Positions 40,799-63,738 of a stretch of DNA of 64,000 nt are shown one piece after another. The stretch spans positions 49,317-113,316 of IMG/VR virus record IMGVR_UViG_3300038968_000013. The stretch is one strand, 5' to 3'. The stretch comes from a virus. Taxonomy: Duplodnaviria; Heunggongvirae; Uroviricota; Caudoviricetes. The notes under the pieces are model-generated. The model made no database searches. It was not told the origin of the DNA and worked only from the letters and a program-made list of their open reading frames with translations. The position numbers and the translations under genes are program-made. Numbering within the stretch: the first letter of the stretch is position 1; every line of letters begins with the position of its first letter.

Positions 40799-40872
40799 CG
40801 GAACCGAGGGGGATCGAACCCCTAACCTTTCCCGTGACAGGGGAGCGTTCTAGCCAATTGAACTACGGCTCC
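40799..40872 (-). tRNA. tRNA-Asp (GTC)
   Basis: Manual fold. Acceptor GGAGCCG/CGGTTCC, D-arm GTTC..GAAC, anticodon loop CTGTCAC and T-arm AGGGG TTCGATC CCCCT. Confidence 0.6.
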
Positions 40873-40877
40873 GTGAG

Positions 40878-40951
40878 AGTCGATACCCGGATTCGAACCG
40901 GGACCGCTAGTTTGGAAGACTAGCATGCTAACCGTTGAACACTACATCGAC
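40878..40951 (-). tRNA. tRNA-Gly (TCC), probable
   Basis: Manual fold. Acceptor GTCGATG/TATCGAC, anticodon stem CTAGT/ACTAG with loop CTTCCAA, and T-arm CCCGG TTCGAAT CCGGG. The D-stem is weak, and the 5' end overlaps the ORF 40928..41182. Confidence 0.45.
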
Positions 40952-41182
40952 ATTGATATGACCGCCATCTGCGGTGGTATAGGGGGCGCAGGTTCTGATG
41001 TGGAACCCCTCGACCGTCTTGCCACTTCCCTCATGTATTGTACGGAAGTACTTCTGAGCCGCTTGGCAAGCACTGAGGACGTCTAGCGCCACTACCCTTA
41101 CGATTCGATTAACCGTCGAAGGCATACGACTGTCCGTAACCCTTGCCTCACACTCCACCACGTATACCTTCATTGTCATCAC
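40928..41182 (-). CDS. hypothetical protein (doubtful 3' end)
   Basis: 84-aa ORF. Its last 24 nt overlap the predicted tRNA-Gly. Confidence 0.25.
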   Translation of the reverse strand: MMTMKVYVVECEARVTDSRMPSTVNRIVRVVALDVLSACQAAQKYFRTIHEGSGKTVEGFHIRTCAPYTTADGGHINVDVVFNG

Positions 41183-41397
41183 TCAATCAACCCCGCTGCC
41201 TTACACCGCGCCTCGAATTCCCGCGACAAAATGCGGCATCCCTCCAGCTGTCGCTTCACGAACTCCCTATCCTCGATCAACCTAGCCGTTGGACATGGGC
41301 TGAGATTCGCACACCCACGGCAGAACTTCGGATTGGATGGCATCGCCTGATGGTACCCCCTGAGTACCTTCAACTCCTCGTCCGTGATCAAATCCAT
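41179..41397 (-). CDS. hypothetical Cys-containing small protein
   Basis: 72-aa ORF downstream of the minus-strand promoter at 41517..41546. Confidence 0.35.
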   Translation of the reverse strand: MDLITDEELKVLRGYHQAMPSNPKFCRGCANLSPCPTARLIEDREFVKRQLEGCRILSREFEARCKAAGLIE

Positions 41398-41516
41398 CCA
41401 CCCCTCTTCTGCAGGCTAGCTCGCTTGACATGGATTTGGGCAACCATGTCGTATTCAGGATTCGCTTCTGAGCTATCTGCCTCGTCGCCCGAAGTACAAG
41501 CGAATCGGCAAAAGGC

Positions 41517-41546
41517 ATTATACGCACACCCTCAAGAAGGCGTCAA
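41517..41546 (-). promoter_or_regulatory. sigma70-like promoter TTGACG-N18-TATAAT (minus strand)
   Basis: Reverse complement of 41517..41546 reads TTGACGccttcttgagggtgtgcgTATAAT. Confidence 0.55.
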
Positions 41547-41614
41547 GGTGTTTTTTAGCAGCAATTCCGCGTATTTAGGCCCAACCTCGCGGAATCGTTG
41601 AGGAAAATCGATTT

Positions 41615-42150: not shown

Positions 42151-42223
42151 TCCTCGAATGTACCATAAAAGCTAGCTGGGTACAATAGGTGGAGAAGGTT
42201 ACTTGTATGCCGGGTTCCCGGTT

Positions 42224-42867: not shown

Positions 42868-43223
42868 ACCAACACCCACGCCAGGAAGAAGTAGGTCAGC
42901 GCATGAAGGTACTGATCGAACCCCAGCAAGATCCAGAACCACTCGCTATTGTTCGGCAGTAAGCCGTAATGCGCACCAACGTTCATCTTGGCCCAATCGA
43001 TGTGGTAGTGAGCTACCCCGTCGACCACCATCGACAACATAGCGAGCGTCACGCTATCGCAGCACGAGAGCACAACCCAGAACGTTGCCAGCGCATGCAG
43101 CCCCGCGTGGAGAATTCCGCCAGGGTGACCGTACGTACCCTTATTGGTGTACATGTACGGATGCGCCTGCATCGGAAAGTCCACGATGAAATGCTTCGTG
43201 AATAGCCAGAAGAGTAGCGTCAT
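42864..43223 (-). CDS. polytopic membrane protein, His-rich
   Basis: 119 aa with 3-4 hydrophobic helices. Confidence 0.4.
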   Translation of the reverse strand: MTLLFWLFTKHFIVDFPMQAHPYMYTNKGTYGHPGGILHAGLHALATFWVVLSCCDSVTLAMLSMVVDGVAHYHIDWAKMNVGAHYGLLPNNSEWFWILLGFDQYLHALTYFFLAWVLV

Positions 43224-43954
43224 TAGCCCTCCATCCCCATGTCATACCCCGGATGATCCGGAATCAGGCTACCGAGATATGCTCGGTCCTGCGTGAAAAC
43301 CGGAGGACACCCATTTGTTCCCCAACCATGCGACAGGCACTCGCGCCAATACTGCTGCACACGACCGCGACGAAAGCCTTCCGGATGATTGTTCCAGTTG
43401 TCACCCTTCGCGTGAATCATGTCGTGTAGGTCGGGCGACTTCTTCCCGTGCAGTTCCTTGTGCGAGTAGTAGTGCTGCGCCAGCATCTGCAGGGAATTGC
43501 GTTCCGCATCCTGCTGCCGCCAGATGAAGTAGTTCATGACCTCGGTGCGATCTGGGATCACGAACACGCGCGCATCGAAGACAGCCGCCATGTCGACGCC
43601 CCAGCACCGGTTGAACGCGACCGATGCCGTTGCCGCCGCGATCGAGCACATTTTCTGCAGGTTGCCGTCGAACCACGCGTCGGTCTGAATCGAGTCGAAG
43701 TCCGTCAGGAGTAGCGAGATTTCGTCCGACTGCGTGAAGGCGAATTGGGTACCCTGAATGCTTTTGCAGAGCGCCAACGCGGTGACGTCCATCGCGTTCA
43801 TGAAGCCCTTATCGTATGGCTTCTCCATGTGACGAGTCAGCGTGTGAAACGCTTTCCCGTCGACACGGATGACGGTGTAGGTGCGCCGAGGAAGGGAAAT
43901 GCGGTACCGATCTTCGTACTGCTCCTTCATGCGATCACCTAGCGAGTCAGGCAT
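43223..43954 (-). CDS. tRNA-His guanylyltransferase (Thg1-like protein)
   Basis: YEDRYRISLPRRTYTVIRVDGKAFH, EKPYDKGFMNAMDVTALAL and AFTQSDEISLLL align with the Thg1 family blocks (..VVRLDGRGFH.., ..KPNDERALNLMN.., ..YGYSDEYSFVF). Confidence 0.65.
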   Translation of the reverse strand: MPDSLGDRMKEQYEDRYRISLPRRTYTVIRVDGKAFHTLTRHMEKPYDKGFMNAMDVTALALCKSIQGTQFAFTQSDEISLLLTDFDSIQTDAWFDGNLQKMCSIAAATASVAFNRCWGVDMAAVFDARVFVIPDRTEVMNYFIWRQQDAERNSLQMLAQHYYSHKELHGKKSPDLHDMIHAKGDNWNNHPEGFRRGRVQQYWRECLSHGWGTNGCPPVFTQDRAYLGSLIPDHPGYDMGMEG

Positions 43955-46439: not shown

Positions 46440-47980
46440 TGGATGGATTTCTGATGATTCGTTATTTGTTCAACTTGGTAGCTAACTTAGGCGACTTGCC
46501 AGAGACGCTACTTTGGGCTGGATCAATTTGAAACTGGGTGGGTTATACATATGCGGGACTTTGGGGAGGAGCTATTCAGGGAAACGTGAAATATTATAGC
46601 GCGGGGGTACACTACAGAATAAGCTAACTCATTGATCCGACTGGGAAAACCAAATTGCCCAATGTTTTCGCGGGGTTAGGGGCTGGACAAGATCCGTGCC
46701 AGCCGATTGGCACGGGACTTGCTAGCGATCGTTGGCATGCGGATTATCCCTGCTAGATCGCGGGGTTACGCGCTTCCCCAAAACATGAGGGGTATCGCGG
46801 ACTTAGGGCACCTAATGAAATCAGGTACTTAGCGCCAATGTCCGATAATGTTCTATTATGTCAACTCGCCACTCCAATTAAATCAGGTACTTAGTTAGGC
46901 TCGCCGAATATTATTAGGTCGCGGGGCCGTTACGCCTAACGCGCTTTTCGGCCAGGTGTGGCATAATCCTTGCTAGAACCGACGCGTAAGGCGTTGGCAT
47001 GATTCTTGCAGGGTCGGGGATCGCTAGGGTGGCCCCCCCCTGTATCATTTCGTTACACCCTGTCTCATTTTAACACATATCGACCCATCCCTTAGTGCGT
47101 CATTATGTCGCACCTACCTTAGGCGAAAGTCGCTTCCTTAACAATTCCGGGCACTTACCCGAGCTGGCACGATTCTCGCGTATCTGATTCTTCTTTACTT
47201 TCGCGCACTTAGGTCTGGTATGGTACTAGTGACATAGGCGAAAGTAGGGCAGATTTTGACGGCGTGCGTCATTTTTCGCTAAACTTTCGCTTTTCTGGAC
47301 CATGCGCTAATCGAGCGGAAACCGGCATAGGCAACGCGTCAAGGTCGGTTGATACATTGGCATGGTCTCAGGGTTGCGCGTGTCCTAGGGCAATTGTGGA
47401 CGTTCTAGACCTACGTTCCGAATGACATAGGTTGTTTCGGTTGCTATCTATTAAGGGCGGTTCCCGGTTCGCCCGGTTGGTTCCCGTTCCCGTGGCCTCG
47501 GCGCGGTTGGCCACGGTTCCCGGTTCGCTCATGGTTCCCGGTTGAATTGGCCACGGGTCGCGGTTGGTTTTCTGGGCTAGACGCGCGCCCGCTAGCGTCT
47601 AATCGGGCGCGAATTTTCCCGGTTGGTAGCGGATTATGCGCTAAGTACCCGGAAACATTAGAAAAGAAAAATTACGATTGACGCATTTTTTTTGTTGACA
47701 ACCGCTTGCGGTTTCCTTAGGATCGGTTCCGTTGATAGCGCAACCCCGCATGACGGCGGTTCGCGGATTCCGTAGGGTGCAAGGTTGTTCGCCGTTTCGC
47801 ACGCGGTTCAACGGAACGTGCGTTAAGGTTCGCGGCGCGCTAATCCGTAGGCTTTGACGTCGGAACGTTGCCCGGTTCCGATACCATGCCACATAGGGCG
47901 GAAACATTGGGAACGCGGTTGACCCTCACTGCTAAACCGCGCGGAATTAACCGCGCCGTTTACCTAGGAGGGTTTCACCA
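46440..47980. repeat. 1.5-kb repeat-dense non-coding region (candidate origin / partition / control region)
   Basis: No credible ORF. Direct repeats TTGGCA(C/T)G..TGCTAG x4 (46700-47030), AAATCAGGTACTTAG x2 (46815, 46882), TAGGCGAAAGT x2, and CGGTTCC/GGTTCCCGGTT x>8 (47460-47900). Palindrome CCGTGCCAGCCGATTGGCACGG (46693-46716). Also contains a C8 tract (47035-42) and T8 tracts. Confidence 0.6.
47695..47723 (+). promoter_or_regulatory. sigma70-like promoter TTGACA-N17-TAGGAT preceded by an A/T-rich UP-like tract
   Basis: TTGACA at 47695-700, 17-nt spacer, TAGGAT at 47718-23. It points into the plus-strand module. Confidence 0.45.
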
Positions 47981-54444: not shown

Positions 54445-54582
54445 TACCAAAGCTTGTTCCAGATCTTGCGGTACCGAGCTGCGAGAGTATCGTTGGTGCG
54501 ACCGTCGAACGTTTCGAGCGACCACACGACGATGACGGCGAGGTTCGCCACCACGAATGCTGCACCGATGAATCCCACCATG

Positions 54583-54711
54583 TTACTGTCCTCCCATCCC
54601 TACGATGATGTACTTGAAGTAAGCCGCGCCCGAGATAAACCCGAGCGCGACTCCCACACCCACCGCCACCCCAAACACCACCGACCGAAAAAACGTCTTT
54701 ACGTTGTCCAT
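54583..54711 (-). CDS. small membrane peptide
   Basis: MDNVKTFFRSVVFGVAVGVGVALGFISGAAYFKYIIVGMGG. The start overlaps the SPFH gene stop codon. Confidence 0.3.
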   Translation of the reverse strand: MDNVKTFFRSVVFGVAVGVGVALGFISGAAYFKYIIVGMGGQ

Positions 54712-55796
54712 TACTGTGCCTGCTTCAAGTCGACCATGGGCATCGCGGGACCGGAGACGAGGGAGAGTTTTCCATCCCACTTCCGAATACGTTCCCACTC
54801 GACCAGTGTCGGCGTGATTGACTTGGCGAGGATTTCGTTTGCTTGTGCCTCGGCCTTGGCGCGGATCAGCTGTGCATCGGCTTGTCCTTGAGCGAGCGCC
54901 TTAGCCTGGTCACCCTCGGCTTGCTTGGCGCGCACCATGTTCTCGGCTTGGATTGCAGCCTGTGTCGCGGCGATAGCCTGGTTGACTGCCTGCATGACCT
55001 TATCGTCGACCCGCAGTCCCGAGACGAAGGCGAACGATTCCACCTTGATACCGTCCGGTGCCATACGAGTCTGCAGCTCCTTGAGCACGTTGGCCTCTAG
55101 CTCGCGGCGCCCTTCTCCGAGAATGAGCATCGTGTCCATCGTCTGGCCATAGTGGGCCACGATGTCACGAATCTGAGAGCGCATGTATGTGTGTGTGATG
55201 CGTCCGATGTCCTGGCGGAACTTCACGAAGAGCTGCGGAATCTTCTCCGGTTCCAGCGAGTAGGCCAGGAAGACGTCGGCGTTCACGAGGCTCGACTGCT
55301 TCGAGTTGAACGTGATGCTCTCGTCGCCGGGGGACTCTGGGGTATCGTCCTTGGTGAATACCTGCTGCTGCAGGAAGATCGGGAACAGATGAATCTCGGT
55401 CTTGAAGGGGTTGTACACCTGAATGCCAGTAACGGCAGTCGCGTTAGCAACGCCCTTATCTGAGCCCCAGAGGTTCACCTTGACGCCTACGTAGCCAGGC
55501 GGCACCCGTGTATATCCACAGCCGCTACCTGTCAGCAGAAACGCGGACAGCGCCAGCGGCAGCAGCACGGCGGGGAACGATACCTTACCCACGTTCTCGG
55601 TGAGCCAGGCGAATCCCATGTAGAGTAGCGTCGCGGCCAGCATGAAATCGGCCAGACACACGAGCAGCCCAAAGATAGCGAGGAACGTGCTCTTCGCGGA
55701 CCACATTTCGATCCCGAGCGTCCACACCCCCACGACCACGAGTAGCGCGCAGATGACGCTACCTACGACTTGAACGAGAAACCGCAATCCACTCAT
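54711..55796 (-). CDS. SPFH/band-7 (flotillin/HflK-like) membrane protein
   Basis: N-terminal TM helices followed by an SPFH-like core, then an Ala/Gln-rich coiled-coil tail (AQAENMVRAKQAEGDQAKALAQGQADAQLIRAKAEAQA). Confidence 0.65.
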   Translation of the reverse strand: MSGLRFLVQVVGSVICALLVVVGVWTLGIEMWSAKSTFLAIFGLLVCLADFMLAATLLYMGFAWLTENVGKVSFPAVLLPLALSAFLLTGSGCGYTRVPPGYVGVKVNLWGSDKGVANATAVTGIQVYNPFKTEIHLFPIFLQQQVFTKDDTPESPGDESITFNSKQSSLVNADVFLAYSLEPEKIPQLFVKFRQDIGRITHTYMRSQIRDIVAHYGQTMDTMLILGEGRRELEANVLKELQTRMAPDGIKVESFAFVSGLRVDDKVMQAVNQAIAATQAAIQAENMVRAKQAEGDQAKALAQGQADAQLIRAKAEAQANEILAKSITPTLVEWERIRKWDGKLSLVSGPAMPMVDLKQAQ

Positions 55797-55822
55797 ACCA
55801 TCCTCCCCTTATTGTACTCGGT

Positions 55823-57544
55823 TTACTTAGCCTGCATTCGATACCGCAACTCCGACTCGTGCTGACTTCTCAGCGCGGTAAGGACTTGCGCAGAGTCGAT
55901 TGGAGTGTATAGCTCCCGAACCATGGCGACTCTTTCGTCCCAGCTGCGACTACGAAACGCCTCTGGCTTTTCGTACCATTCTTCGGGCACGTCGAAATCG
56001 CTAGCATTCGCGAGTACCGTATCGATAGTGTTTTTGATTGAACGTCCGGTGAAGTGTTCACTTTGCTTCCTGAAATCCTCGCACTCCATCCCGAGGTCGA
56101 GCCACGTATCCGCCATGTCAAAAGCGGGAGCCTTGTGCTTCGTCTGCGCCCTACGTGGACGGGACAGTGGCTCGTATCTCGTTGATGGAATCTTGACGAT
56201 ACCCTGTTTGGTGGCTTTGCGCAAGAGGAGCGCGATCAGATCCGCGTAATCCTCTGGCGTCTCCGGTCCCATGACTGGAAAGCGCGCGACGAATCGCTGA
56301 CGGAGAGCCGCGTCGGTGGCGGTCGGAGCATTCGTGGCTGCAATTGTGATGTATGAGCCCGAATAGGCTGAACCGACACCAGAGAAGAAATCCATCAGCC
56401 CCTTGAGAATGTCACGATCGCCGCCACCCATGCCGGGAGAGGAACGATCGCCACCCGCGAAGAGCAGATCCACGTCGTCGAGACACATGATCGAGAGACG
56501 ACCCGGATCTCTCAGGTCGTTCAGTAGATCATTTAGAAGCGTAGCTGTTTTGCCATACCATTCCGACTTCACGTCCGATGCACCCAGCGACTTGAAGTAG
56601 GTTGGCATACCGATTTGGTCAGCGCGACGCTGTAGCAGCGTCATCGCCATCCTCATGATACTGCTTTTACCAGTGCCCGGAGGTCCGTCCAGGAGGATGC
56701 TTTCGAGAATACCCCCCATTTCACAAAATGGATTCTTCCCGAGCTGTGGGTCGTAGCACGCGAGACGATCCATTTGCCGCCTGAGCTGTAGTACCGCAGC
56801 GTCGTTGCCGACGATCTCTTCCGGTTGAACCGGGACAAAGGAAACACTTGTAGCATCTTTTGCTTTCTCTACCGTTGTTCCCGTGATGGTGAACTTCTGG
56901 TATCGGAAGGTGACTTGATCGAGAGACGATCCGAGTGTCTTATGAGCACGGGCTTTAATCCGAGCTTGTTCAGCAACCCAGCTCCAGTAGTCGCGAGAAA
57001 TACTAAGCTCGTCGCCAACGATATGGACGATAGGATTGCCGTGCTGATCTTTTGCTTGAATGGCATCGATGTACCGTGCAAGGCAAAGCCCGAGGTCGCC
57101 GTCGATAGATCCACGGATATCTAGCTTCAGGATGCTTGTGTCGAGAGTTGCGAATTGACCTTCCCGACGTCGCAGCAGGCGAGCCGCTTCCACTTGAATG
57201 AAGCTCGCTGCTACGAACGTCGAGTAGGCAGAAATGAATGCTGCGCGTTCTTGAATCTCCGGAGAGATAACGCCACCGCGTGCTTGAAGCTCTTTGGCAG
57301 CCTCGCGCTGCCCGGTGCGTTCCATCAGATGGTCCACGAACCAGTAGTAGAAGCACACGGCTTGCCGAATGAGGAAAACGAGAGCCATTTCCTCAGGCAG
57401 GACTCGCCAGGTCTCTTGTGGCGAGAGGTCTTTCAGAATGTCTTCGAGGTCGCGTTCACCGTCGATCTTGGAGAGCGCCCGTTCGGCGGTCGCAATCCAC
57501 TTATCGAGGTCTTCAGCCTTGATGGGGAGGGCTTCGCGTTCCAT
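55823..57544 (-). CDS. AAA+ ATPase (classic-clade AAA domain) with ~330-aa N-terminal domain of unknown function
   Basis: Walker A LLDGPPGTGKSS, Walker B IMCLDDVDLL and sensor/Arg-finger region IAATNAPTATDAALRQRF. Confidence 0.7.
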   Translation of the reverse strand: MEREALPIKAEDLDKWIATAERALSKIDGERDLEDILKDLSPQETWRVLPEEMALVFLIRQAVCFYYWFVDHLMERTGQREAAKELQARGGVISPEIQERAAFISAYSTFVAASFIQVEAARLLRRREGQFATLDTSILKLDIRGSIDGDLGLCLARYIDAIQAKDQHGNPIVHIVGDELSISRDYWSWVAEQARIKARAHKTLGSSLDQVTFRYQKFTITGTTVEKAKDATSVSFVPVQPEEIVGNDAAVLQLRRQMDRLACYDPQLGKNPFCEMGGILESILLDGPPGTGKSSIMRMAMTLLQRRADQIGMPTYFKSLGASDVKSEWYGKTATLLNDLLNDLRDPGRLSIMCLDDVDLLFAGGDRSSPGMGGGDRDILKGLMDFFSGVGSAYSGSYITIAATNAPTATDAALRQRFVARFPVMGPETPEDYADLIALLLRKATKQGIVKIPSTRYEPLSRPRRAQTKHKAPAFDMADTWLDLGMECEDFRKQSEHFTGRSIKNTIDTVLANASDFDVPEEWYEKPEAFRSRSWDERVAMVRELYTPIDSAQVLTALRSQHESELRYRMQAK

Positions 57545-57663
57545 TAGTACGCCAGGAAGTAGTACACGTTAAGACTGCACGAGCCGAGAAGTAGGAGAAG
57601 CGAGACGCCCGAGACCCACATGAGGGTCGTAAGCGCATCCCCGATGCCACGTCCGTCCATTAC
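57544..57663 (-). CDS. possible 39-aa membrane peptide
   Basis: MDGRGIGDALTTLMWVSGVSLLLLLGSCSLNVYYFLAY sits between the coiled-coil and AAA genes. The upstream part of the track ORF is antisense shadow. Confidence 0.2.
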   Translation of the reverse strand, partial: VMDGRGIGDALTTLMWVSGVSLLLLLGSCSLNVYYFLAY

Positions 57664-58772
57664 TCGTGCCGTACGCCTTCGTGAGCCTCGCGCTCGACGT
57701 CCGCAAACTCTTTGAGGAAGTCGTTGACGTGACCGGTAAGCTGTTGCAGCAGCTCCCGCGAACGCTCTGGGCTGATTGCCGCGTGCTTGAGGCGCTGTGC
57801 CGCGATTTCGAGTGCCGCTCCTGCCACCGCCACGTTGTGATCCGTGATCACTTCCACGGAACGGTTGAGCGCAGGATCGACCGCCTGGTAGCGTTCCAGC
57901 TGAGCGCGCGCACGCACTGCCGTCATGGAGTTTTCGAGCACGACGGCCAGGTTCTGCCACTTCTCCAGCAGGTTCCGACGCATGCCGTGAACCGACTCGA
58001 TGGAGAGCGCAGCTGCATCCTTCGACTTCTGCAGCGTGGGGATGGCGCGCTGAGCCTCGGTGACGATGGTAATGAATTCCATCACGTCGAGACGCACCTT
58101 CTCCAGGTCACGCTTCAGAGCTTCGAATTCGGCTTCCTTCGCGGGCCGATCCTTCTGCTCGATGGTTCCGGACTTCAGCTCCAGGTCGAGCGCATTGTAG
58201 CGCCCTTCCAGCTCTGCTCTGCGCTGTTCCGCTTGGAGTTGACGCGGGGTCGCTTCCTTGAGCTTGGACAATACGGTATCGATGCTCTTCCCGTACGACT
58301 CGACGTTGGACACGTACTCCGCTTCTACCGTCCCCAACTTCTCGATCGTCTCCTGCACGAAGGTCTCGACTTCGCGACACGCCTCTTCGACCGAGGCAGT
58401 GTCGAGCCGCGAAACACGGAGCGCCTGAGCCTTGTTCATCGCCTTGTCGGAGAACTGCCCGAGGAACGCCAGGGTCTTTTCCTTGACGCCCCGGAATTCG
58501 CCCGACCGCGCGATTTGCAGCCCGATGGCCTCGATGCGCTGAATCACGTCAGAGCACAACGCCCGAAGCTCCTGCTCCATGGCGGCGCCCTTCTCGTGTG
58601 CGTCGGCCAACTTCTGGCTACCGTGCGTGACGCGTTGCTTGCCCTGCTTGACCTCGGTGGCTTGCCGTTCCTGCTTGATGTCCAGGTCCGAAATCACCGT
58701 GTCGTTCTGCAGCGATTCGCGGATAGCTGCCCGCCCGGTACGCTGCGCCGTTTGTTCCCTCACTTGCGCCAC
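57660..58772 (-). CDS. all-helical coiled-coil protein (TelA/YaaN-like?)
   Basis: 370 aa. GTG start with a GGAGGTGG RBS. Long heptad-like Glu/Arg/Leu-rich segments. The family assignment is tentative. Confidence 0.45.
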   Translation of the reverse strand: MAQVREQTAQRTGRAAIRESLQNDTVISDLDIKQERQATEVKQGKQRVTHGSQKLADAHEKGAAMEQELRALCSDVIQRIEAIGLQIARSGEFRGVKEKTLAFLGQFSDKAMNKAQALRVSRLDTASVEEACREVETFVQETIEKLGTVEAEYVSNVESYGKSIDTVLSKLKEATPRQLQAEQRRAELEGRYNALDLELKSGTIEQKDRPAKEAEFEALKRDLEKVRLDVMEFITIVTEAQRAIPTLQKSKDAAALSIESVHGMRRNLLEKWQNLAVVLENSMTAVRARAQLERYQAVDPALNRSVEVITDHNVAVAGAALEIAAQRLKHAAISPERSRELLQQLTGHVNDFLKEFADVEREAHEGVRHE

Positions 58773-58799
58773 TGTGCCACCTCCGTTTGATAGTATGCG

Positions 58800-58925
58800 A
58801 ACATGTTGTTTGTGACCATCTTTTTACCGGTGCTCTAACACTGAGCTACTTCCACATGTGGAAGGCTGGACTTTAACCAGCGACCCCCGGTCCTTCATGA
58901 GAACAGTCAACAGTCGGCTCGCAAG
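58800..58925 (-). ncRNA. Y RNA-like permuted tRNA mimic, E1
   Basis: Reading 5' to 3' on the minus strand, in order: leader GCGAGCCGAC, anticodon-stem 3' strand ACCGG, variable loop GGGTC, T-arm GCTGG TTAAAGT CCAGC, acceptor 3' strand CTTCCAC-A, a 1-nt link, acceptor 5' strand GTGGAAG, TA, D-arm GCTC AGTGTTA GAGC, A, and anticodon-stem 5' strand CCGGT. The 7-bp acceptor and 5-bp anticodon stems are perfectly complementary between the two halves. Confidence 0.5.
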
Positions 58926-59109
58926 CCGTTAACATTGGTCCCGATGCCGTGGACACAACCCCCGGCTCTCCCGCACCAACGCGGTTGTTCTGTGTACATG
59001 TCGGGCTACACCGAATCGTGCTGCCCCGGCCGGGTCAACAGCAGAGATTCATCTGGCAGACATTTAACCAACACGGTCTAGTTTCTGAACTACATCGGGA
59101 AAAGAAAAA

Positions 59110-59246
59110 GCGAGCATGTAGCTTCTTTGAGGAGTGTATTTTTGACGGTTGCTCTACCAACTGAGCTACATTCTTGGTTGCCCTTGAATGGCTGGATTCG
59201 AACCAGCGACCCACTGTGTGTGATAACCCTCAAACGTTCGGCTCGC
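59110..59246 (-). ncRNA. Y RNA-like permuted tRNA mimic, E2
   Basis: Same order as E1. T-arm GCTGG TTCGAAT CCAGC, acceptor halves CATTCAA / AAGAATG (5 of 7 bp) joined by a GGGCAACC loop, and D-arm GCTC AGTTGGTA GAGC. Leader GCGAGC pairs with trailer GCTCGC. Confidence 0.5.
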
Positions 59247-59328
59247 GAAAAATGACCCCGAAGTCATGCTAATTATGCATGAATACTCAGCCTCGATGAG
59301 CATCGGGGAGAGAAGCTGTTTCAAAAAG

Positions 59329-59411
59329 TACCGGTGACAGGATTCGAACCTGCAAGAGTTTCCCCTACTAGTTCCTAAGACTAGCGTGTACGCCAATGCC
59401 ACCTCACCGGC
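59329..59411 (-). tRNA. tRNA-Leu (TAG), class II
   Basis: Manual fold. Acceptor GCCGGTG/CACCGGT, anticodon arm CTAGT CTTAGGA ACTAG, a 13-nt variable arm and T-arm GCAGG TTCGAAT CCTGT. Collinear with E. coli tRNA-Leu. Confidence 0.6.
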
Positions 59412-59421
59412 AAAAAGAAAG

Positions 59422-59531
59422 TGGGTAGGGGTGGAGTTGAACCACCAAGTAAGCTCTCAAGTAGGCATACTCAACTAGTATTTTCAGCCCACCATCCAGC
59501 TATTCTCTGTACAACAAATGTACACCTACCC
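59422..59531 (-). ncRNA. 110-nt tRNA-like RNA (perfect 7-bp acceptor + T-arm, ~35-nt extra internal sequence)
   Basis: 5' GGGTAGG ... GGTGG TTCAACT CCACC CCTACCC A 3'. The D-arm is a 4-6 bp palindrome (G)TGTACA..TGTACA. No canonical anticodon arm could be placed by hand. Confidence 0.35.
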
Positions 59532-59595
59532 ATAGTCTCGGACAACGGATTGCGGTCTCACTGTACCGCGCTTAATCCCCGAGCTTAAAACGGTT

Positions 59596-59650
59596 GGGGC
59601 CAGGCTGGATTCGAACCAGCAGAGAGGGATGGCAAATCCCCCACGAACTG
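59596..59650 (-). ncRNA. tRNA-like 3' module (anticodon-like hairpin GGGGA TTTGCCA TCCCT + T-arm GCTGG TTCGAAT CCAGC + CTGGCCC)
   Basis: No matching 5' acceptor strand either upstream or downstream. It shares a GCTGGCAAAA submotif with E4. Confidence 0.3.
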
Positions 59651-60100
59651 AGCGGATCAAAGCGTGCAAGCTTTTGCCAGCTCAGCGACACTACCCGGTC
59701 TAGACTTCCTCAGCCCGCCGCCATTGCCAACCATGCGACTTACTGACCCCAGAAAACTAACCACGAACATAAAAGTGAAGAGCGAGCTGTCAGCTGGGTA
59801 CCCTTGATCTACTCGTACCGCCCCATTGATGCGAAGGCTTATCAGCTTCGTAGAGGGTATCACCCCAGGTGACTTGTCATCCATCTTACACCCCGGATGC
59901 ATAGGTGTGCTGCCTTCATCGGTGGACCTGACCTTTTCACTACTCAGTTAAACGTTGTTTCGAGGGCGCCTTGTCCGGTCTCCCCCTGGCTTTTTTATCA
60001 AAGTAGAGAACACTCTTCGATTGGCTCGTGGTTCTTGTCCCAGCAATCCTACCCCTCAGTGTGCTAATGAGTCTCAGATCTCAGCCGGGACCAAAACTAT

Positions 60101-60235
60101 ATACCCTGAACGTATGGGCGTCGATGCGGTTTAACGCTCTGCCATTGAGCTAACTCTGCAGGTTAGTGCAGAGCCTGGGACTCGAACCCAGATCTTTCGA
60201 TTATCATTCGAGAACACACCAACAGTCGGCTCAGG
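60101..60235 (-). ncRNA. Y RNA-like permuted tRNA mimic, E3
   Basis: Leader GTTTCACCCTGAGCCGACTGTTG..., T-arm CTGGG TTCGAGT CCCAG, acceptor 3' strand GCTCTGC-A, loop CTAACCT, acceptor 5' strand GCAGAGT, TA, D-arm GCTC AATGGCA GAGC. Head ACCCTGA pairs with tail TCAGGGT. Confidence 0.45.
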
Positions 60236-60284
60236 GTGAAACTTAGATTGTCAAAGAACAAGGTGGAGAACGAGTTACAGAAAG

Positions 60285-60365
60285 CAGGGATTAGTGGGAT
60301 TTGAACCCACATCAGCCGGTTTTTGCCAGCTTCGTCATCCAGTAGCGATAACCCTGCCTAGTTCG
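60285..60365 (-). ncRNA. tRNA-like module E4 (shared leader + T-arm GTGGG TTCAAAT CCCAC)
   Basis: Leader GAGAGCCGAAC matches those of E1-E3. The tRNA-like features are incomplete. Confidence 0.3.
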
Positions 60366-60380
60366 GCTCTCCGGATCTTT

Positions 60381-61043
60381 TTACAGCGCCACTTCGCGTG
60401 GCGTGTGAACTGACGGCATCGTAGCACCGATGGATGGCTTTGTCAAATCCTGATGCTTTGCCATCCAATCCTGCACGAACCAGAGCTGTCCACAGCCGCC
60501 GCCGATGTCGTCCTGTCCCGCAGGATCGAAGCAGCGCACCGAGTACCCGATCGTCTTCATCATGTCCATGAAGTTGGTCGCGAGGGTCCGCTGACGATGA
60601 TTCGCCGCAGCCACGCTCTCGTCCCGCTCACAGATGACGCTGATCGTTGCTTCCCACGTATCCGGGTGAAACAAGCGGCGCAGGTTGTTGACGTCCTGCC
60701 ACGATACGTTACCCGGATGCGCGCAGTAGTTGAAGAACGGGCGGCGCCCGGTGACGTTGTAGAAGCGATTGCCTTGGTACGCGATCTGCGCGAGGTTCAG
60801 CTTTGCCTTGAACGGAATGAGCTGATCGCGCTTCTCGTCGGTGCTCTCATGAACCGAGAATTGCAGCCCGATGGTAGGAATCTTCCGCGCCGCTTCCATG
60901 ATCGGGTCGTAATCGACGTCCGGAGCACTCGTGGAAATGAGCAGCGAGAAGTTCGGGTAGAGGAAGTACAGGTACTCCATCGCCCTGATCAGTTCCTTTT
61001 GGTTGAGCATTTGTTTACACCAATTGTAAGTAAGATAACCCAC
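60381..61043 (-). CDS. hypothetical protein downstream of rsr
   Basis: 220-aa ORF. No motif recognised. Confidence 0.4.
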   Translation of the reverse strand: MGYLTYNWCKQMLNQKELIRAMEYLYFLYPNFSLLISTSAPDVDYDPIMEAARKIPTIGLQFSVHESTDEKRDQLIPFKAKLNLAQIAYQGNRFYNVTGRRPFFNYCAHPGNVSWQDVNNLRRLFHPDTWEATISVICERDESVAAANHRQRTLATNFMDMMKTIGYSVRCFDPAGQDDIGGGCGQLWFVQDWMAKHQDLTKPSIGATMPSVHTPREVAL

Positions 61044-61160
61044 TACCCGGTCGGCTCACCGTATGCCGTTATGTCTGAGACGCGAACATGTAGACGCCTA
61101 GGGCTGTTTTCATTTAGGCAATGGTAACCCTAGAGCTATCGGCTCGCGCGTATCTTGTCG

Positions 61161-62777
61161 TTACAGACCCTTCGCGAACTCCGAGATTAGCTGCGGGGTG
61201 GCAGTGTCGAAGCCCACCACGTCGAGCTGACCCGGATCGTTTGGATCTGCGATGGTGAAGTTGGTCGCAGTCATGCCGACCGTTACCATCTTGCAGTCCT
61301 TCTTGTTCATGCGCGTACGGAACTGGCGCAGAGCAGTGCTCGCGTGCGTGTTCCCGGCCCAAACCTCGTTGTCCGTGATGATCACGAAGCAATCGACGTC
61401 GAGGCTATGCTGCATCGCGTACTTCATTGCGACCGCACCGTCCGTACCACCGAAGTTGGCGTCCTGAGCAGCGCGCGCAGCATCACGGAGCGACATGCCC
61501 GGATGGATACGAAGATCCTTGAAGTGATGCGCGAATCCACCGATGAAATAGTTGCTCTCGGTGTTTGCGATCACGAGCGCCATTGCTGCTGCGCCGATGC
61601 ACGGAGTCAGACCCGGCACGCCCGCGATGCTGCCGCCCGCCATCGAGCCCGAGACGTCGACTCCCAGGAAGAAGTTCTTCCCGGTCGGCTCGACCGCCTT
61701 GAACGCGAGGTAGAACGCCTCGTCGAGGGCCTTGACCACCTTCTGCGAAGGTGTCCAGGTCTTGGACATGTCGCGGGCACCACGCCCCGCCGCGTACGTC
61801 AGGTTCGCAGCCAGGATCTGAATCGGATGCACACGGCCCTTGATGATCGCGTCCTGGTTGCCCAGAAGCTTCACGATGTCCTTCTCGGCCTGCGACAGCG
61901 GCTTCAGCAGTCCGACACGCGTCATGGTCGCCAGGTTGCGGATGACCATGGTGATCCCGCCCGTCGACAGCAGCGCCTCCCAAACCTCTGGAGCGTTCAG
62001 CAGCTGCGTCGGGATGATCTCGCGCGGCAGGTTGAAATCGGTGATCAGCTGCACCGCAGTCTTCACGTCGGCCTTGGTAGCCCCCGTGATTGCCTGCATG
62101 ACACGCGCACCCTCGATCATGTCCGGACCCTTGGTGAAGTCTTCCTTCTTCAGGGCGAACTCGAAGACAGCACGGCGCATAGCATCGTCGGTCTTCGGAT
62201 GCGTCAGACGCAGGAGGTCACGATGCGACCAACCGTCACGCTGCTGGTACTTCACGACCTGCAGTGCCAGCTTGTCGACCGGCTTGGCAAGGTACCAATC
62301 ACGCACCGCGTTCTTCAGCGCACGACCCCAGCCACGATACTGGCGGGCGAAGGCGATGAAATGGAACAGATGCGTTCCAGTACGCGCGACCTTGTGCAGA
62401 TTGGCGAGCGCGTAACGCTTCACGTCGTCGCTACCCTCGGAGGCAGCGTATGCCAGTGCCAGCAGCGCCGGATCGTTCTTCGGCGCGCGACCGTCCTGCG
62501 AAATCTGGACGATCTCGTTGACGAGACGCATGCCATCCTCCAGGAGGCACGCCTTGACGGCGTTCAGGCTCTCCTTGGTGTGCTGGCGCTGGTCAGCGTA
62601 GTACGTCCCACCCTCGGTGCCGAGGATCAGGAAGCGACGCAGATGCATCCAATGCCCGGTGGCAAAAACGTAACCACCCGCATGGTTCTTCACCTGGCGC
62701 GCGTCCAGCGGCTCCGACTCCGGAACCGGCTTCGAAATCTCGTTCAGTAGATAGCTTCCCTTGCGTCCCATCGTCAT
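61161..62777 (-). CDS. rsr: Ro60/Rsr ortholog (TROVE domain + C-terminal vWA/MIDAS domain)
   Basis: GGYVFATGHWMHLRRFLILGTEGGTYYADQRQ...ISQDGRAPKNDPALLALAYAAS aligns with the N-terminus of the Ro sixty-related protein (..RFLILGSEGGTYY..RAPKND). GVDVSGSM is a MIDAS motif. Confidence 0.85.
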   Translation of the reverse strand: MTMGRKGSYLLNEISKPVPESEPLDARQVKNHAGGYVFATGHWMHLRRFLILGTEGGTYYADQRQHTKESLNAVKACLLEDGMRLVNEIVQISQDGRAPKNDPALLALAYAASEGSDDVKRYALANLHKVARTGTHLFHFIAFARQYRGWGRALKNAVRDWYLAKPVDKLALQVVKYQQRDGWSHRDLLRLTHPKTDDAMRRAVFEFALKKEDFTKGPDMIEGARVMQAITGATKADVKTAVQLITDFNLPREIIPTQLLNAPEVWEALLSTGGITMVIRNLATMTRVGLLKPLSQAEKDIVKLLGNQDAIIKGRVHPIQILAANLTYAAGRGARDMSKTWTPSQKVVKALDEAFYLAFKAVEPTGKNFFLGVDVSGSMAGGSIAGVPGLTPCIGAAAMALVIANTESNYFIGGFAHHFKDLRIHPGMSLRDAARAAQDANFGGTDGAVAMKYAMQHSLDVDCFVIITDNEVWAGNTHASTALRQFRTRMNKKDCKMVTVGMTATNFTIADPNDPGQLDVVGFDTATPQLISEFAKGL

Positions 62778-62927
62778 CCCCTCACATTCGGTTATCGGCT
62801 CACACGGTAGGTTTTAAGACACCACTTACCCGGCCCAGCCACGCTTGCGCTTTCGATTCGGCCCGTGTGCTCAGGAAACAGAGCTTATGCTATCCTGATG
62901 GTTGTGTCAAGCGGTCGCGCAGATTTT

Positions 62928-63098
62928 TTAGCAGTCGTCTTCTTCGAGAGCAGCGGCCCACGCGTCTTCGAGGTCGTAGGTGTCGAAAATTTCACCGCAG
63001 TTGTTGCATTCGAACTCGTAGACTTCACCGTCGATGTCGTCTTCCAGATAGTCCGACTCGACGTCTCTCGATCCACATTCGATACACCGCACCGCCAT
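62928..63098 (-). CDS. small acidic zinc-ribbon protein (56 aa)
   Basis: MAVRCIECGS...CNNCGEIF... has two CxxC pairs. It is below the track's length cut-off. Confidence 0.4.
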   Translation of the reverse strand: MAVRCIECGSRDVESDYLEDDIDGEVYEFECNNCGEIFDTYDLEDAWAAALEEDDC

Positions 63099-63099
63099 G

Positions 63100-63738
63100 T
63101 CATCCCCCTTGAATGATCGACAGGATATGTTGAGCGGAAATCGGCGCGTAGTTCCACACGTCGACTCCGACGTTGATACGCTTGTCGAGAACCTTCCAGG
63201 CTTCGTGAACGTGGCCGCAGAGCAACCACTGGTTCGGGTTGTACTCCGGACGAAACTCTTCGAACCGCACTTCGTCGGAATGATCCGCGTTGACGCGCGC
63301 TTCCAGATCCGGGAGGTGGGCGAGAGTTACAACGGGACCATCGATTCCCAGCTGCAGCTCCAGAGGTGGCTGCCAGATTTCAGAAATGCCACCCCACTCC
63401 TTGTATTGTGCTTCGTGCTTGTCGCGATGCTTCGTGGAATGCCCGTCGCGCCCCTTGTCCCAGCAGTTGTCATGGTTGCCAGGAACCACGATCTTGGTAC
63501 CCCGGCACCAGCTGAGCCACGGGACCGTTTCGGCACGCTTCCCCATGGCAACGTCGCCGACGTGAATGACGGTTGCACCTTCCGGAACAACCGCATTCCA
63601 GTTGAGCACAAGACCCTTGTTCATGCTGGGTACATCAGCCCATGGCCTCGTGCAGTACGTGAGGATATTGCCATGCCCCCAATGTGTGTCGGAGGTAAAG
63701 TAAAGCTTACTAATATCCTCCCATACTTTTCTGATCAT
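63100..63738 (-). CDS. calcineurin-like metallophosphoesterase
   Basis: FTSDTHWGH, IHVGDV, GNHD and GHVH form the dimetal phosphoesterase motif set. Confidence 0.65.
   Translation of the reverse strand: MIRKVWEDISKLYFTSDTHWGHGNILTYCTRPWADVPSMNKGLVLNWNAVVPEGATVIHVGDVAMGKRAETVPWLSWCRGTKIVVPGNHDNCWDKGRDGHSTKHRDKHEAQYKEWGGISEIWQPPLELQLGIDGPVVTLAHLPDLEARVNADHSDEVRFEEFRPEYNPNQWLLCGHVHEAWKVLDKRINVGVDVWNYAPISAQHILSIIQGG

What the first reader, a model, noticed from the sequence alone, without database searches (positions are those of the whole stretch)
40799..63738. Possible RNA-maintenance toolkit: tRNAs + Thg1-like + Rsr + Y-like RNAs + metallophosphoesterase
The window combines true tRNA genes, a tRNA 5'-end repair enzyme, an RNA-quality-control protein with candidate cognate ncRNAs, and a dimetal phosphoesterase adjacent to rsr. 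Together they suggest a counter-defence against host tRNA- or RNA-targeting nucleases. This is a hypothesis drawn from co-occurrence.
Basis: inference. Interest (0 to 1): 0.55.

Follow-up and report, generated by a model that had tools for sequence, protein, structure and literature searches.

The report
Phage Ro60, Y-RNA array and tRNA-repair genes
An uncultivated tailed phage carries a Ro60 (Rsr) RNA-binding protein followed by an unusually long row of Y-like small RNAs, plus, 17 kb away, a tRNA 5'-end repair enzyme and tRNA genes; every part is real and of a known kind, but nothing shows they act as one anti-defence kit.

Summary
Every listed element is present. There are three tRNAs, a bacterial-type Thg1-like protein (TLP), a full-length Rsr/Ro60, and a dimetal phosphoesterase (MPE) with all five motifs intact. 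The "Y-like RNAs" are real. Downstream of rsr lies a 2.4-kb array of at least six Y-like units. Each closes with a GAGCCGA…A(C/U)GUUC stem that carries the published Rsr-binding motif GNCGAA. Three units have the permuted tRNA-like domain of YrlA, supported by compensatory changes. tRNA-Leu(UAG) and a tRNA-like RNA sit inside the array.

The genes fall into two separate clusters: MPE–Zn-ribbon–rsr–Y array, and TLP–tRNA-Gly/Asp 17 kb away across a divergent gene block. Each cluster is syntenic in a different relative. Rsr and Thg1 have almost disjoint distributions in 50,697 phage records. No RNA ligase or kinase was found. The MPE resembles only a protein of unknown function.

The "phage RNA-repair toolkit" idea is already published (Burroughs & Aravind 2016; Iyer et al. 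2021). Phage Ro60 with Y RNAs is also described (Chen 2014; phiLo 2025). Verdict: a new member of a known kind, with an expanded, mosaic Y-RNA array as its most unusual trait. The counter-defence reading remains untested.

The parts
40798..40872 (-). tRNA-Asp (GTC)
   Evidence: ARAGORN; Rfam tRNA 62 bits. An orthologue lies next to Thg1 in relative L010.
40877..40951 (-). tRNA-Gly (TCC)
   Evidence: ARAGORN; Rfam 53.8 bits. Orthologue in L010.
43223..43954 (-). Thg1-like protein (TLP), bacterial type: a 3'-5' nucleotidyltransferase acting on tRNA 5' ends
   Evidence: Pfam Thg1 E 3.5e-28. PDB 4kgk (B. thuringiensis TLP) E 6e-52, with the RVDGxxFH and QSDEIS segments conserved; their catalytic role is from recalled knowledge. 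The flanking 100-aa and 119-aa genes are syntenic in L010.
58796..58923 (-). Y-like RNA F (YrlA type): terminal stem UGCGAGC/GUUCGCA, then T-arm, hairpin and D-arm
   Evidence: Rfam YrlA 40.4 bits; MFE z -2.4; compensatory changes against L004 F'.
59110..59246 (-). Y-like RNA E (YrlA type): GCGAGC/GCUCGC stem; U-rich tract 3' of it
   Evidence: Rfam YrlA 35.9 bits; MFE z -2.0; orthologue at L004 2765-2901, where the hairpin is fully replaced yet still pairs.
59328..59411 (-). tRNA-Leu (TAG), type II, embedded in the Y-RNA array
   Evidence: ARAGORN and Rfam 45 bits. The L004 orthologue has a compensated anticodon stem, CUAGU/ACUAG changed to UCGGU/ACCGA.
59422..59532 (-). Unclassified tRNA-like RNA (TL2): 7-8 bp acceptor stem, D-like hairpin, long irregular arm in place of the anticodon arm, T-arm
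   Evidence: MFE z -3.3, with 0 of 200 shuffles as stable. Nearly identical in L004 2546-2665. Not called by ARAGORN or Rfam.
59759..60033 (-). Candidate large Y-like unit G (variant motif GAGCCAA; 10-bp terminal stem; ~230-nt interior)
   Evidence: Pattern hit. The fold is not better than shuffles, z -1.0. Absent from L004. Weak.
60103..60237 (-). Y-like RNA D (YrlA type): ACCCUGAGC/GUUCAGGGU stem
   Evidence: Rfam YrlA 26.5 bits; MFE z -3.7; included in the covariation set.
60265..60372 (-). Y-like RNA C: GGAGAGC/GUUCUCC stem enclosing two hairpins and a T-arm
   Evidence: MFE z -3.8, 0 of 200 shuffles. 5' part conserved at L004 2129.
60381..61010 (-). 5'-truncated RlmN/Cfr-like radical-SAM gene (209 aa, C-terminal two thirds only, no CxxxCxxC)
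   Evidence: NCBIfam Cfr/RlmN, profile positions ~170-342, E 2e-7. Full-length relatives are 307-317 aa and carry CPVGCRFC. No N-terminal half exists elsewhere in the window.
61009..61060 (-). 5' half of Y-like RNA B, cut off by the radical-SAM fragment
   Evidence: 52 nt identical to L004 1775-1826, where the unit is a complete 103-nt RNA (GGUGAGC…GUUCACC). Divergence begins exactly at the ORF's ATG.
61080..61149 (-). Y-like RNA A (hairpin type, 70 nt): GCGCGAGC/GUUCGCGU stem
   Evidence: MFE z -3.0. Orthologues at L004 1685-1752 and L002 11662-11732.
61161..62777 (-). rsr (Ro60 orthologue). The likely start is ATG 62771 (536 aa), which has better spacing from the GAGGGG ribosome-binding site.
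   Evidence: An identical 536-aa protein, P0001, occurs on four metagenome contigs.
62778..62912 (-). rsr leader and promoter-like element (CGCTTGACAC-N11-ATAGCATAAG); the leader carries GNCGAA-like motifs at 62861 and 62801
   Evidence: The same element is conserved at L002 9853-9887 despite diverged flanks. The leader fold is not significant.
62928..63098 (-). 56-aa zinc-ribbon/TRASH-like protein between the MPE and rsr
   Evidence: Pfam TRASH_HVO_1752_C E 1.4e-5, below the cut-off. Its start lies immediately after the MPE stop codon.
63100..63738 (-). Calcineurin-like dimetal phosphoesterase (Aq_1665-like), substrate unknown
   Evidence: Pfam; PHROG 547 E 4e-38; motifs invariant. AF2 model pLDDT 94; the best PDB fold match is 1xm7, of unknown function. 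A 51%-identical homologue lies upstream of rsr in L002.

Best explanation
The window holds two separate RNA-related clusters of an uncultivated tailed phage.

(1) A Ro60 ribonucleoprotein module. rsr is transcribed from its own promoter-like element. It is followed on the same strand by an array of at least six Y-like RNAs, a tRNA-like RNA and tRNA-Leu(UAG). By homology, the Rsr ring binds the GNCGAA-containing terminal stem of each Y RNA. The variable distal modules are tRNA-like in units D, E and F. They would engage host partners, chiefly PNPase as in the Deinococcus and Salmonella RYPER complexes and Thermus phage phiLo. This would redirect or damp host 3'-5' RNA decay and structured-RNA quality control during infection. 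The embedded tRNA suggests the array is made as a precursor and cut by host tRNA-processing enzymes.

(2) A bacterial-type Thg1-like enzyme next to tRNA-Gly and tRNA-Asp. It would add templated nucleotides to 5'-shortened tRNAs, including G-1 of tRNA-His opposite C73. This keeps phage and host tRNAs chargeable.

Shown here: the identities, the RNA architecture, its covariation, and the synteny. Inferred: Rsr binding, the PNPase partner, processing, TLP substrates, and any role of the neighbouring phosphoesterase.
For: - Protein identities.
- Y-RNA array: about 100-fold enrichment of the two-part stem motif. MFE folds give the same stem-loop-stem plan for A, C, D, E and F with z from -2.0 to -3.8. 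14 of 24 pairs are compensatory and 0 of 500 shuffles reach the observed values.
- A covariance model built from these units finds independent copies beside rsr. These are in Cashline, Sparky, Catera, FuzzBuster, one assembled bacterial genome contig (L023) and one metagenome contig carrying a phage-type integrase (L024).
- The motif equals the published Rsr-binding GNCGAAN0-1G (PMC4201824) and the CGAA motif whose mutation reduced binding by a phage Ro60, a protein that also binds and attenuates host PNPase (PMC12135203).
- Synteny: MPE-x-rsr-Y array is kept in L002 and TLP-tRNA-Gly/Asp in L010.
- TLP biochemistry: templated 5'-end repair of truncated tRNA (PMC4820378, PMC3701042).
- The phage tRNA-His has an encoded G-1 opposite C73.
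Against: - No expression, binding or phenotype data exist.
- The Rfam YrlA gathering score is not reached.
- Unit G and TL1 are not supported by folding statistics.
- The host is unknown, so a PNPase partner is assumed.
- Only six sequences from three related phages underlie the covariation, and paralogues are mixed with orthologues.
- Whether the phage genome encodes a ligase or kinase outside the ~74 kb seen (window plus L005) is unknown.
Confidence: 0.6

Rival explanations
1. One reading: tRNAs, TLP, Rsr/Y RNAs and the phosphoesterase form one coordinated counter-defence kit. It restores or replaces tRNAs and other RNAs cut by host anticodon nucleases or other RNases. The MPE removes 2',3'-cyclic or 3'-phosphate ends, the TLP rebuilds 5' ends, the phage tRNAs substitute for cleaved ones, and Rsr/Y handles damaged RNA.
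For: - The concept is published for phages and lists the same protein classes (PMC7824862).
- In Salmonella, rsr-yrlBA sits in the rtcBA RNA-repair operon, which is induced by damaged tRNAs (PMC7790460).
- In Weasels2, Thg1 clusters with RtcB, a 2'-5' RNA ligase, tRNAs and an MPE homologous to the window's (E 2e-19). In Omegavirus Pound it is two genes from a polynucleotide kinase.
- Both Rsr (0.7% of records) and Thg1 (0.3%) are rare in phages, so having both is uncommon.
Against: - The two clusters are 17 kb apart with a divergent block between them.
- No RNA ligase, kinase or RtcB is found in the window or the 10 kb beyond it.
- The MPE's only structural relative is of unknown function, and its family occurs in 1139 phage records, mostly in host genera whose phages carry few or no Rsr matches.
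- The MPE-rsr adjacency is lineage-specific.
- The Thg1-bearing actinophage Weasels2 has no Rsr in the 85 kb examined.
- No Thg1 is seen on the contigs of the 65% Rsr relative.
Confidence: 0.2
2. Housekeeping reading: the tRNAs supply codons the host decodes poorly, the TLP only matures the phage's own tRNAs (notably tRNA-His G-1), and Rsr/Y RNAs are a mobile accessory module without a defence-related role.
For: - The phage carries at least 10 tRNAs, including tRNA-His.
- Weasels2 also pairs Thg1 with a tRNA-His, one that lacks an encoded G-1.
- tRNAs lie beside rsr in Sparky and Catera too.
- The array evolves by gain and loss of units, as accessory loci do.
Against: - The window phage's tRNA-His already encodes G-1 opposite C73, so Thg1 is not needed for it if RNase P cuts as in bacteria.
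- The host's codon usage is unknown, so this could not be tested.
Confidence: 0.15
3. The Y-like units are decayed tRNA genes or selfish repeats with no function.
For: They contain tRNA T- and D-arm consensus sequences. One unit is truncated by an insertion. Unit content differs between close relatives.
Against: The arm order is permuted (T-arm, hairpin, D-arm), as in YrlA and not as in a tRNA. Every unit keeps the Rsr-binding motif in a closing stem whose flanking bases covary. Pairing is maintained through many double changes. Homologous units sit beside rsr in distant phages and bacteria.
Confidence: 0.05

Closest known systems
Bacterial and phage Rsr with YrlA-type Y RNAs (Chen et al. 2014, RNA 20:1715; Rfam RF02553), e.g. 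in mycobacteriophages of the Catera (Bixzunavirus) type, Sparky and Gordonia phage Cashline
   Same: Full-length Ro60 orthologue. Adjacent same-strand small RNAs with GNCGAA in the 5' strand of a closing stem. A permuted tRNA-like domain (T-arm, hairpin, D-arm). At least one hairpin-type Y RNA as well. tRNA genes nearby.
   Different: The array lies downstream of rsr. In the seven other rsr loci where the model found copies, they lie upstream (L002, the 65% relative, also has its array downstream). It holds 3 YrlA-type units plus at least 3 other Y-like stems, a tRNA-like RNA and a true tRNA. My model finds 1-2 YrlA-type units in those seven other loci. A relative with 89%-identical Rsr has 8 GAGCCGA units. 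Rfam scores are below the gathering score, as they are for the known phage examples.
Thermus phage phiLo Ro60 with Yrl1 and Yrl2 (NAR 2025, PMC12135203)
   Same: Phage-encoded Ro60 plus phage-encoded Y-like RNAs carrying the CGAA motif. Proposed capture of host PNPase.
   Different: Only distant sequence similarity (PDB 9kop, E 6e-6). phiLo has two Y-like RNAs upstream of its gene. No PNPase binding has been tested for this phage.
Phage RNA-repair repertoires (Burroughs & Aravind 2016; Iyer et al. 2021, PMC7824862); T4 Pnkp-Rnl1 versus PrrC (recalled knowledge)
   Same: The same classes of parts: phage tRNAs, Thg1, TROVE/Ro with a tRNA-like partner, and a phosphoesterase.
   Different: The defining sealing and healing enzymes (RNA ligase or RtcB, polynucleotide kinase) were not found. 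The parts are not in one cluster.
Bacillus thuringiensis Thg1-like protein (PDB 4kgk)
   Same: Alignment over 228 residues, E 6e-52. The metal-binding segments are conserved.
   Different: Phage-encoded. The C-terminal ~40 residues diverge. The substrate is unknown.

Membership tests
Ro60/Rsr | TROVE (HEAT-repeat ring) plus C-terminal vWA domain, full length | tested here: met
   Pfam TROVE E 2e-42 and vWA_Ro60 E 8.5e-49. 2nvo aligned over residues 15-537, E 1e-129.
Ro60/Rsr | MIDAS motif (DxSxS) in the vWA domain | tested here: met
   DVSGSM aligns with DVSGSM of D. radiodurans Rsr.
Ro60/Rsr | Binds Y RNA on its outer surface | not testable with these tools
   Needs pull-down or EMSA.
YrlA / bacterial Y RNA (RF02553) | Reaches the Rfam gathering score (69 bits) | tested here: not met
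   26.5-40.4 bits. Y RNAs beside rsr in four known phages also score only 33-42 bits.
YrlA / bacterial Y RNA (RF02553) | Encoded next to rsr | tested here: met
   The array starts 12 nt after the rsr stop codon, on the same strand.
YrlA / bacterial Y RNA (RF02553) | GNCGAAN0-1G motif in the 5' strand of a stem formed by the 5' and 3' ends | tested here: met
   GAGCCGA(A/C/U) occurs in all units. Closing stems are predicted by MFE, and their flanking bases covary. Motif definition is from PMC4201824. Some units have C or U instead of the second A.
YrlA / bacterial Y RNA (RF02553) | tRNA-like domain (T-arm, acceptor-like hairpin, D-arm) | tested here: met
   Present in units D, E and F. 18 pairs in these three helices, 12 of them with compensatory changes.
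Thg1 / Thg1-like protein | Thg1 catalytic domain above the Pfam threshold, with conserved metal-binding carboxylates | tested here: met
   98.6 bits against 29.2. RVDGKAFH and QSDEIS align with 4kgk. That these are the catalytic residues is recalled knowledge.
Thg1 / Thg1-like protein | 3'-5' nucleotide addition to tRNA | not testable with these tools
   Enzyme assay needed.
Calcineurin-like metallophosphoesterase | Five motifs: DxH, GD, GNH(D/E), H, GHxH | tested here: met
   D17, H19, G61-D62, G87-N88-H89-D90, H141 and G175-H176-x-H178 are invariant in 34 sequences.
RNA end-healing phosphoesterase (Pnkp/lambda-phosphatase type) | Specific similarity to a characterised RNA 2',3'-cyclic phosphodiesterase or 3'-phosphatase | tested here: not met
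   The only sequence hit and the best fold hit is Aq_1665 (1xm7), of unknown function. Next come PptH and Rv0805 at TM ~0.3.
Complete RNA-repair system (healing plus sealing) | RNA ligase (Rnl or RtcB) and polynucleotide kinase present | tested here: not met
   None was found by Pfam, PHROGs or NCBIfam among the larger ORFs of 27.6-64 kb scanned, nor in the precomputed Pfam list for the 10 kb beyond the window. Many small ORFs were not scanned, and the rest of the genome is unseen.
RlmN/Cfr radical-SAM methyltransferase (the 209-aa ORF) | CxxxCxxC iron-sulfur cluster motif | tested here: not met
   The ORF starts at the position matching residue ~113 of full-length relatives, which do carry CPVGCRFC.

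The most novel reading that the evidence does not exclude
The expanded, fast-evolving array of Rsr-binding RNAs is a set of interchangeable adaptors or decoys. The distal modules differ: tRNA-like, T-arm only, plain hairpin, and a possible ~230-nt domain. One phage Ro60 ring, loaded with different Y RNAs, would capture several host RNA enzymes (PNPase, tRNA-processing or tRNA-targeting nucleases). Alternatively, the tRNA-shaped modules would soak up host tRNA-directed defence nucleases. This would make the Y array, not the protein genes, the counter-defence element.
Probability: 0.1. Interest if true: 0.75.

Novelty: new member of a known kind. Interest (0 to 1): 0.38.

Why it matters
Phage Ro60 with Y RNAs is known but functionally almost unexplored; there is one biochemical study. 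This lineage offers a natural series: 8 GAGCCGA units in one relative and about 5 in another. These are units gained, lost and interrupted around a constant Rsr-binding stem. Such a series could show which Y-RNA modules matter. The phage also pairs Rsr with a Thg1-like enzyme, a combination that database counts suggest is rare. If a host were found, it would allow a direct test of whether phage Ro60 RNPs and tRNA 5'-end repair protect against RNA-targeting immunity. As it stands, this is a well-annotated example, not a new principle.

Tried and rejected
- Near-identity DNA search in 50,697 phage records found nothing. A scan of IMG/VR for close Rsr relatives also found nothing. The lineage is known only from metagenome contigs.
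- I considered that rsr and the radical-SAM ORF are themselves bracketed by Y-type stems (GAGCCGA upstream, GUUC at the ORF end). Rejected for three reasons. The rsr 3' partner lies in the conserved codons E-F-A. Stems of 6-7 bp arise by chance at about 20-50% of GAGC sites. In L004, unit B closes on its own 3' strand.
- Sigma-70 promoter and intrinsic-terminator scans of 57.5-64 kb gave no excess over shuffles.
- TL1 (59600-59749) looked like an acceptor stem plus T-arm, but it folds no better than shuffles, z +0.4. Unit G has z -1.0. The rsr leader as an extra Y unit has z -0.4.
- I looked for the missing N-terminal half of the radical-SAM protein (CxxxCxxC in six frames of the window and L005). 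None was found.
- The MPE structure prediction and PDB fold search gave no functional lead.
- Unit B's 5' strand (GGUAGUGGGUUAUC) resembles human Y4/Y1 RNA as I recall them. The Rfam scans gave no metazoan Y_RNA hit at E<=10 (window) or E<=1 (L004). It remains only a recalled resemblance.
- I tried to reach the Thg1-equivalent region of the 65% relative. The 10-kb flank limit stops about 4 kb short, so presence or absence rests on the hit list and is not conclusive.

Full report
**What the window is.** It is part of a tailed phage genome. It encodes a large terminase (25969-27441), portal (23660-25957), protease/scaffold and major head protein (20695-22020), all on the minus strand. GC content is about 55%. 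No near-identical DNA exists among 50,697 deposited phage records and there is no close Rsr relative in IMG/VR. Identical or related pieces occur only on metagenome contigs.

**Observation.**
- Three tRNA genes are called by ARAGORN and exceed the Rfam threshold: Asp-GTC 40798-40872, Gly-TCC 40877-40951 and Leu-TAG 59328-59411.
- ORF 43223-43954(-) is a Thg1-family protein (Pfam E 3.5e-28; PHROG "tRNA-His guanylyltransferase" E 4e-79). Its best solved relative is the Bacillus thuringiensis Thg1-like protein 4kgk (E 6e-52), far ahead of eukaryotic Thg1 (E 6e-8). It therefore belongs with the bacterial TLPs. These add Watson-Crick-templated nucleotides to 5'-truncated tRNAs (PMC4820378, PMC3701042).
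- ORF 61161-62777(-) is a full-length Ro60/Rsr. It has TROVE and Ro60-vWA domains, an NCBIfam Rsr match at E 2e-167, and D. radiodurans Rsr 2nvo at E 1e-129 with the MIDAS DVSGS retained.
- ORF 63100-63738(-) is a calcineurin-like phosphoesterase. All five metal-binding and catalytic motifs are invariant across 34 homologues.

**The Y-like RNAs.** Between the rsr stop codon and the next large ORF (58772) lie 2.4 kb with a single ORF.
- Rfam gives three sub-threshold YrlA hits at 26-40 bits against a gathering score of 69. This is the same range I obtained for Y RNAs beside rsr in Cashline, Sparky, Catera and FuzzBuster, 33-42 bits. The threshold miss is therefore typical of phage Y RNAs.
- The heptamer GAGCCGA occurs seven times on this strand between 58920 and 62801, plus once inside rsr. 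It occurs only three times in the rest of the window, counting both strands.
- Each copy in the array pairs with a downstream A(C/U)G(U/C)UC. The bases flanking the pair covary from unit to unit: GCGCGAGC/GUUCGCGU, GGAGAGC/GUUCUCC, ACCCUGAGC/GUUCAGGGU, GCGAGC/GCUCGC, UGCGAGC/GUUCGCA.
- The joint pattern hits 7 times in 58796-61149, never elsewhere on that strand, and 4 times on the whole opposite strand. Two of the seven hits are probably spurious: the unit B head paired inside the ORF, and 58970-58899.
- Independent MFE folds give the same stem, internal loop, stem plan, with z-scores of -3.0 (A), -3.8 (C), -3.7 (D), -2.0 (E) and -2.4 (F).
- Units D, E and F carry a T-arm, a hairpin and a D-arm in the permuted order described for YrlA.
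- Six such units from the window and two relatives give an RNAalifold consensus in which 14 of 24 pairs show compensatory changes. 96.5% of cells pair, no shuffle out of 500 reaches any measure, and slid controls pair at 26-46%.
- A covariance model built from them finds copies it was not built from. These are in the relatives and directly upstream of rsr in Cashline (two), Sparky, Catera, FuzzBuster, one bacterial genome contig and one integrase-bearing metagenome contig.
- The motif corresponds to the published Rsr-binding motif GNCGAAN0-1G in the 5' strand of the closing helix (PMC4201824). It also corresponds to the CGAA motif whose mutation reduced RNA binding by a phage Ro60 (PMC12135203).

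I conclude the Y-like RNAs are genuine members of the bacterial and phage Y-RNA kind.

**Anatomy of the array, 5' to 3' on the minus strand.**
- A (61149-61080): 70-nt hairpin type.
- B (61060-61009): 5' half only.
- A 209-aa ORF (61010-60381).
- C (60372-60265): two hairpins plus a T-arm.
- D (60237-60103): YrlA type.
- G (60033-59759): a weak candidate with a 230-nt interior, z -1.0.
- A tRNA-like RNA with acceptor stem and T-arm but a long irregular arm instead of an anticodon arm (59532-59422), z -3.3.
- tRNA-Leu(UAG).
- E (59246-59110) and F (58923-58796): YrlA type.

The contig whose Rsr is 89% identical (L004) has eight GAGCCGA units, the same tRNA-like RNA and tRNA-Leu, and no ORF. Its unit B is a complete 103-nt RNA. 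The window is identical to it for 52 nt and diverges exactly at the ORF's ATG. The ORF is the C-terminal two thirds of a compact RlmN/Cfr-like radical-SAM protein. Full-length relatives are 307-317 aa and carry CPVGCRFC. The window copy lacks the first ~110 residues and the cluster motif, and no N-terminal half exists elsewhere. It is best read as a truncated insertion that replaced part of the array. A relative with 65%-identical Rsr (L002) has about five units in an 830-nt gap. The array is thus mosaic and evolves by gain, loss and replacement of units. The other loci examined show only 1-2 YrlA-type units.

**Is it one toolkit?** The genes form two clusters.

Cluster 1 is MPE, a 56-aa zinc ribbon, rsr, then the Y array.
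- The MPE has a 51%-identical homologue in the same position in L002. That synteny is therefore conserved at 65% Rsr identity.
- A promoter-like element (CGCTTGACAC-N11-ATAGCATAAG), conserved between the two phages, lies between the zinc-ribbon gene and rsr.
- Three other MPE homologues of ~50% identity sit beside unrelated genes. The best deposited-phage homologue (Annadreamy, 39%) is not near a Ro gene.
- None of the six other rsr loci examined, four phage and two metagenomic, has an MPE neighbour.
- The MPE family occurs in 1139 phage records, dominated by Vibrio, Pseudomonas, Staphylococcus and Escherichia phages.
- A confident AF2 model (pLDDT 94) matches only Aq_1665, a protein of unknown function. 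It shows no specific similarity to RNA end-healing phosphatases.

Cluster 2 is a 100-aa gene, the TLP, a 119-aa membrane protein, then tRNA-Gly and tRNA-Asp.
- It lies 17 kb from rsr, beyond a block transcribed in the opposite direction (48-53 kb).
- It is syntenic in a 7.4-kb contig, L010, with Thg1 at 65% identity and both tRNAs present.
- No Thg1 on the contigs of the 65% Rsr relative appears among the best 120 of about 8000 scored homologues. This is suggestive but not conclusive.

Distribution in deposited phages:
- Rsr occurs in 362 records, mainly Mycobacterium, Streptomyces and Gordonia phages.
- Thg1 occurs in 164 records, mainly Bacillus, Prevotella and Caulobacter phages.
- The 11 Mycobacterium records with Thg1 all have genomes of about 110 kb (108.6-112.3 kb); the one I opened, Pound, is an Omegavirus. 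Such genome sizes do not appear among the 40 Rsr records I could list. I could not check the other 322.
- Rhodococcus phage Weasels2 (Thg1-positive) has no Rsr in the 85 kb examined.

No RNA ligase, RtcB or polynucleotide kinase was detected among the ORFs scanned in the window or in the precomputed domain list for the 10 kb beyond it.

Points in favour of a repair reading:
- In Weasels2, Thg1 lies among RtcB, a 2'-5' RNA ligase, tRNAs and an MPE homologous to the window's (29% identity, E 2e-19).
- In Omegavirus Pound it is two genes from a polynucleotide kinase.
- The published overviews of phage RNA repair already list tRNAs, TROVE/Ro with a tRNA-like partner, phosphoesterases and Thg1 together (PMC7824862).

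**Mechanism.** Best supported, by homology: Rsr binds each Y RNA at the GNCGAA stem. The distal modules recruit host partners, chiefly PNPase as in RYPER complexes and phage phiLo, altering host RNA decay during infection. The tRNA embedded in the array implies processing by host tRNA enzymes. The TLP restores the 5' ends of tRNAs. The phage's own tRNA-His lies just outside the window (L005 951-1023). It encodes G-1 opposite C73, so the TLP is not strictly required for it. All functional steps are inferred. The sequence identities, RNA structures and synteny are shown.

**Verdict.** This is a new member of a known kind. Its most distinctive trait is an expanded, mosaic Y-RNA array interleaved with a true tRNA and a tRNA-like RNA.

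Noticed in passing
window 60381-61010 (-), with junction at 61009/61010: A 209-aa ORF homologous only to the C-terminal two thirds of a compact RlmN/Cfr-like radical-SAM protein. It lacks the CxxxCxxC cluster motif. It sits inside Y-like unit B and replaces units that are present in relative L004. Its two closest database relatives (P0241, P0243) also have unrelated N-termini without the motif, so a cluster-less form may recur.
   Followed up: partly
window 62778-62912 (-); L002 9853-10000: The rsr leader carries GNCGAA-like motifs (GGGCCGAAUCG at 62861, GAGCCGAUAACCGAA at 62801, the latter 24 nt before the first ATG). A similar GGGCCGAA lies about 20 nt before the rsr ATG in L002 and GAGCUGAA in L004. 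This could mean Rsr binds its own mRNA. The leader fold is not significant in the window (z -0.4).
   Followed up: partly
window 46485-47641: A 1.15-kb stretch with no ORF of 60 aa or more, at the switch between minus- and plus-strand gene blocks. It holds four copies of a GGTTCCCGGTT-type repeat at 47451-47565 and other short direct and inverted repeats. It could be an origin or operator region. No Rfam match.
   Followed up: partly
window 53962-58772 (-): Directly after the Y array come a 370-aa coiled-coil protein with no family match, a 573-aa AAA ATPase, a 361-aa SPFH/Band-7 protein and a 5'-3' deoxyribonucleotidase-like protein. Band-7 and the nucleotidase are syntenic in L002; the AAA and coiled-coil genes are not.
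   Followed up: partly
L005 684-2868 (about 8-9 kb beyond window position 64000, same phage): A second cluster of seven tRNAs (Phe, Cys, His, Lys, Ser x2, Arg) lies beside a second, 261-aa metallophosphoesterase. tRNA-His has a genome-encoded G-1 opposite C73.
   Followed up: partly
L013 35683-35759 (Weasels2 record ~85.68 kb); L013 27465-27538: Rhodococcus phage Weasels2 has an unannotated YrlA-like tRNA-like module (T-arm, hairpin, D-arm; 40.6 bits with my model). No Rsr gene was found in the 85 kb examined. Its annotated tRNA-His has A at -1 and A73, so it would need non-templated G-1 addition by its Thg1.
   Followed up: no
window 28988-33386 (-) and 6048-7130 (-): A cluster of two GT9 glycosyltransferases, a methyltransferase and a hexapeptide-repeat transferase lies just past the terminase gene. 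A further glycosyltransferase lies among the tail genes. This may be a glycan-modification module.
   Followed up: no
window 61030-61060 (-); L004 1775-1877: The 5' strand of unit B (GAGCCGACCGGGUAGUGGGUUAUC) resembles the 5' strand of human Y4/Y1 RNAs as I recall them (GGUCCGAUGGUAGUGGGUUAUC). The Rfam scans gave no metazoan Y_RNA match, so this is an untested resemblance.
   Followed up: partly
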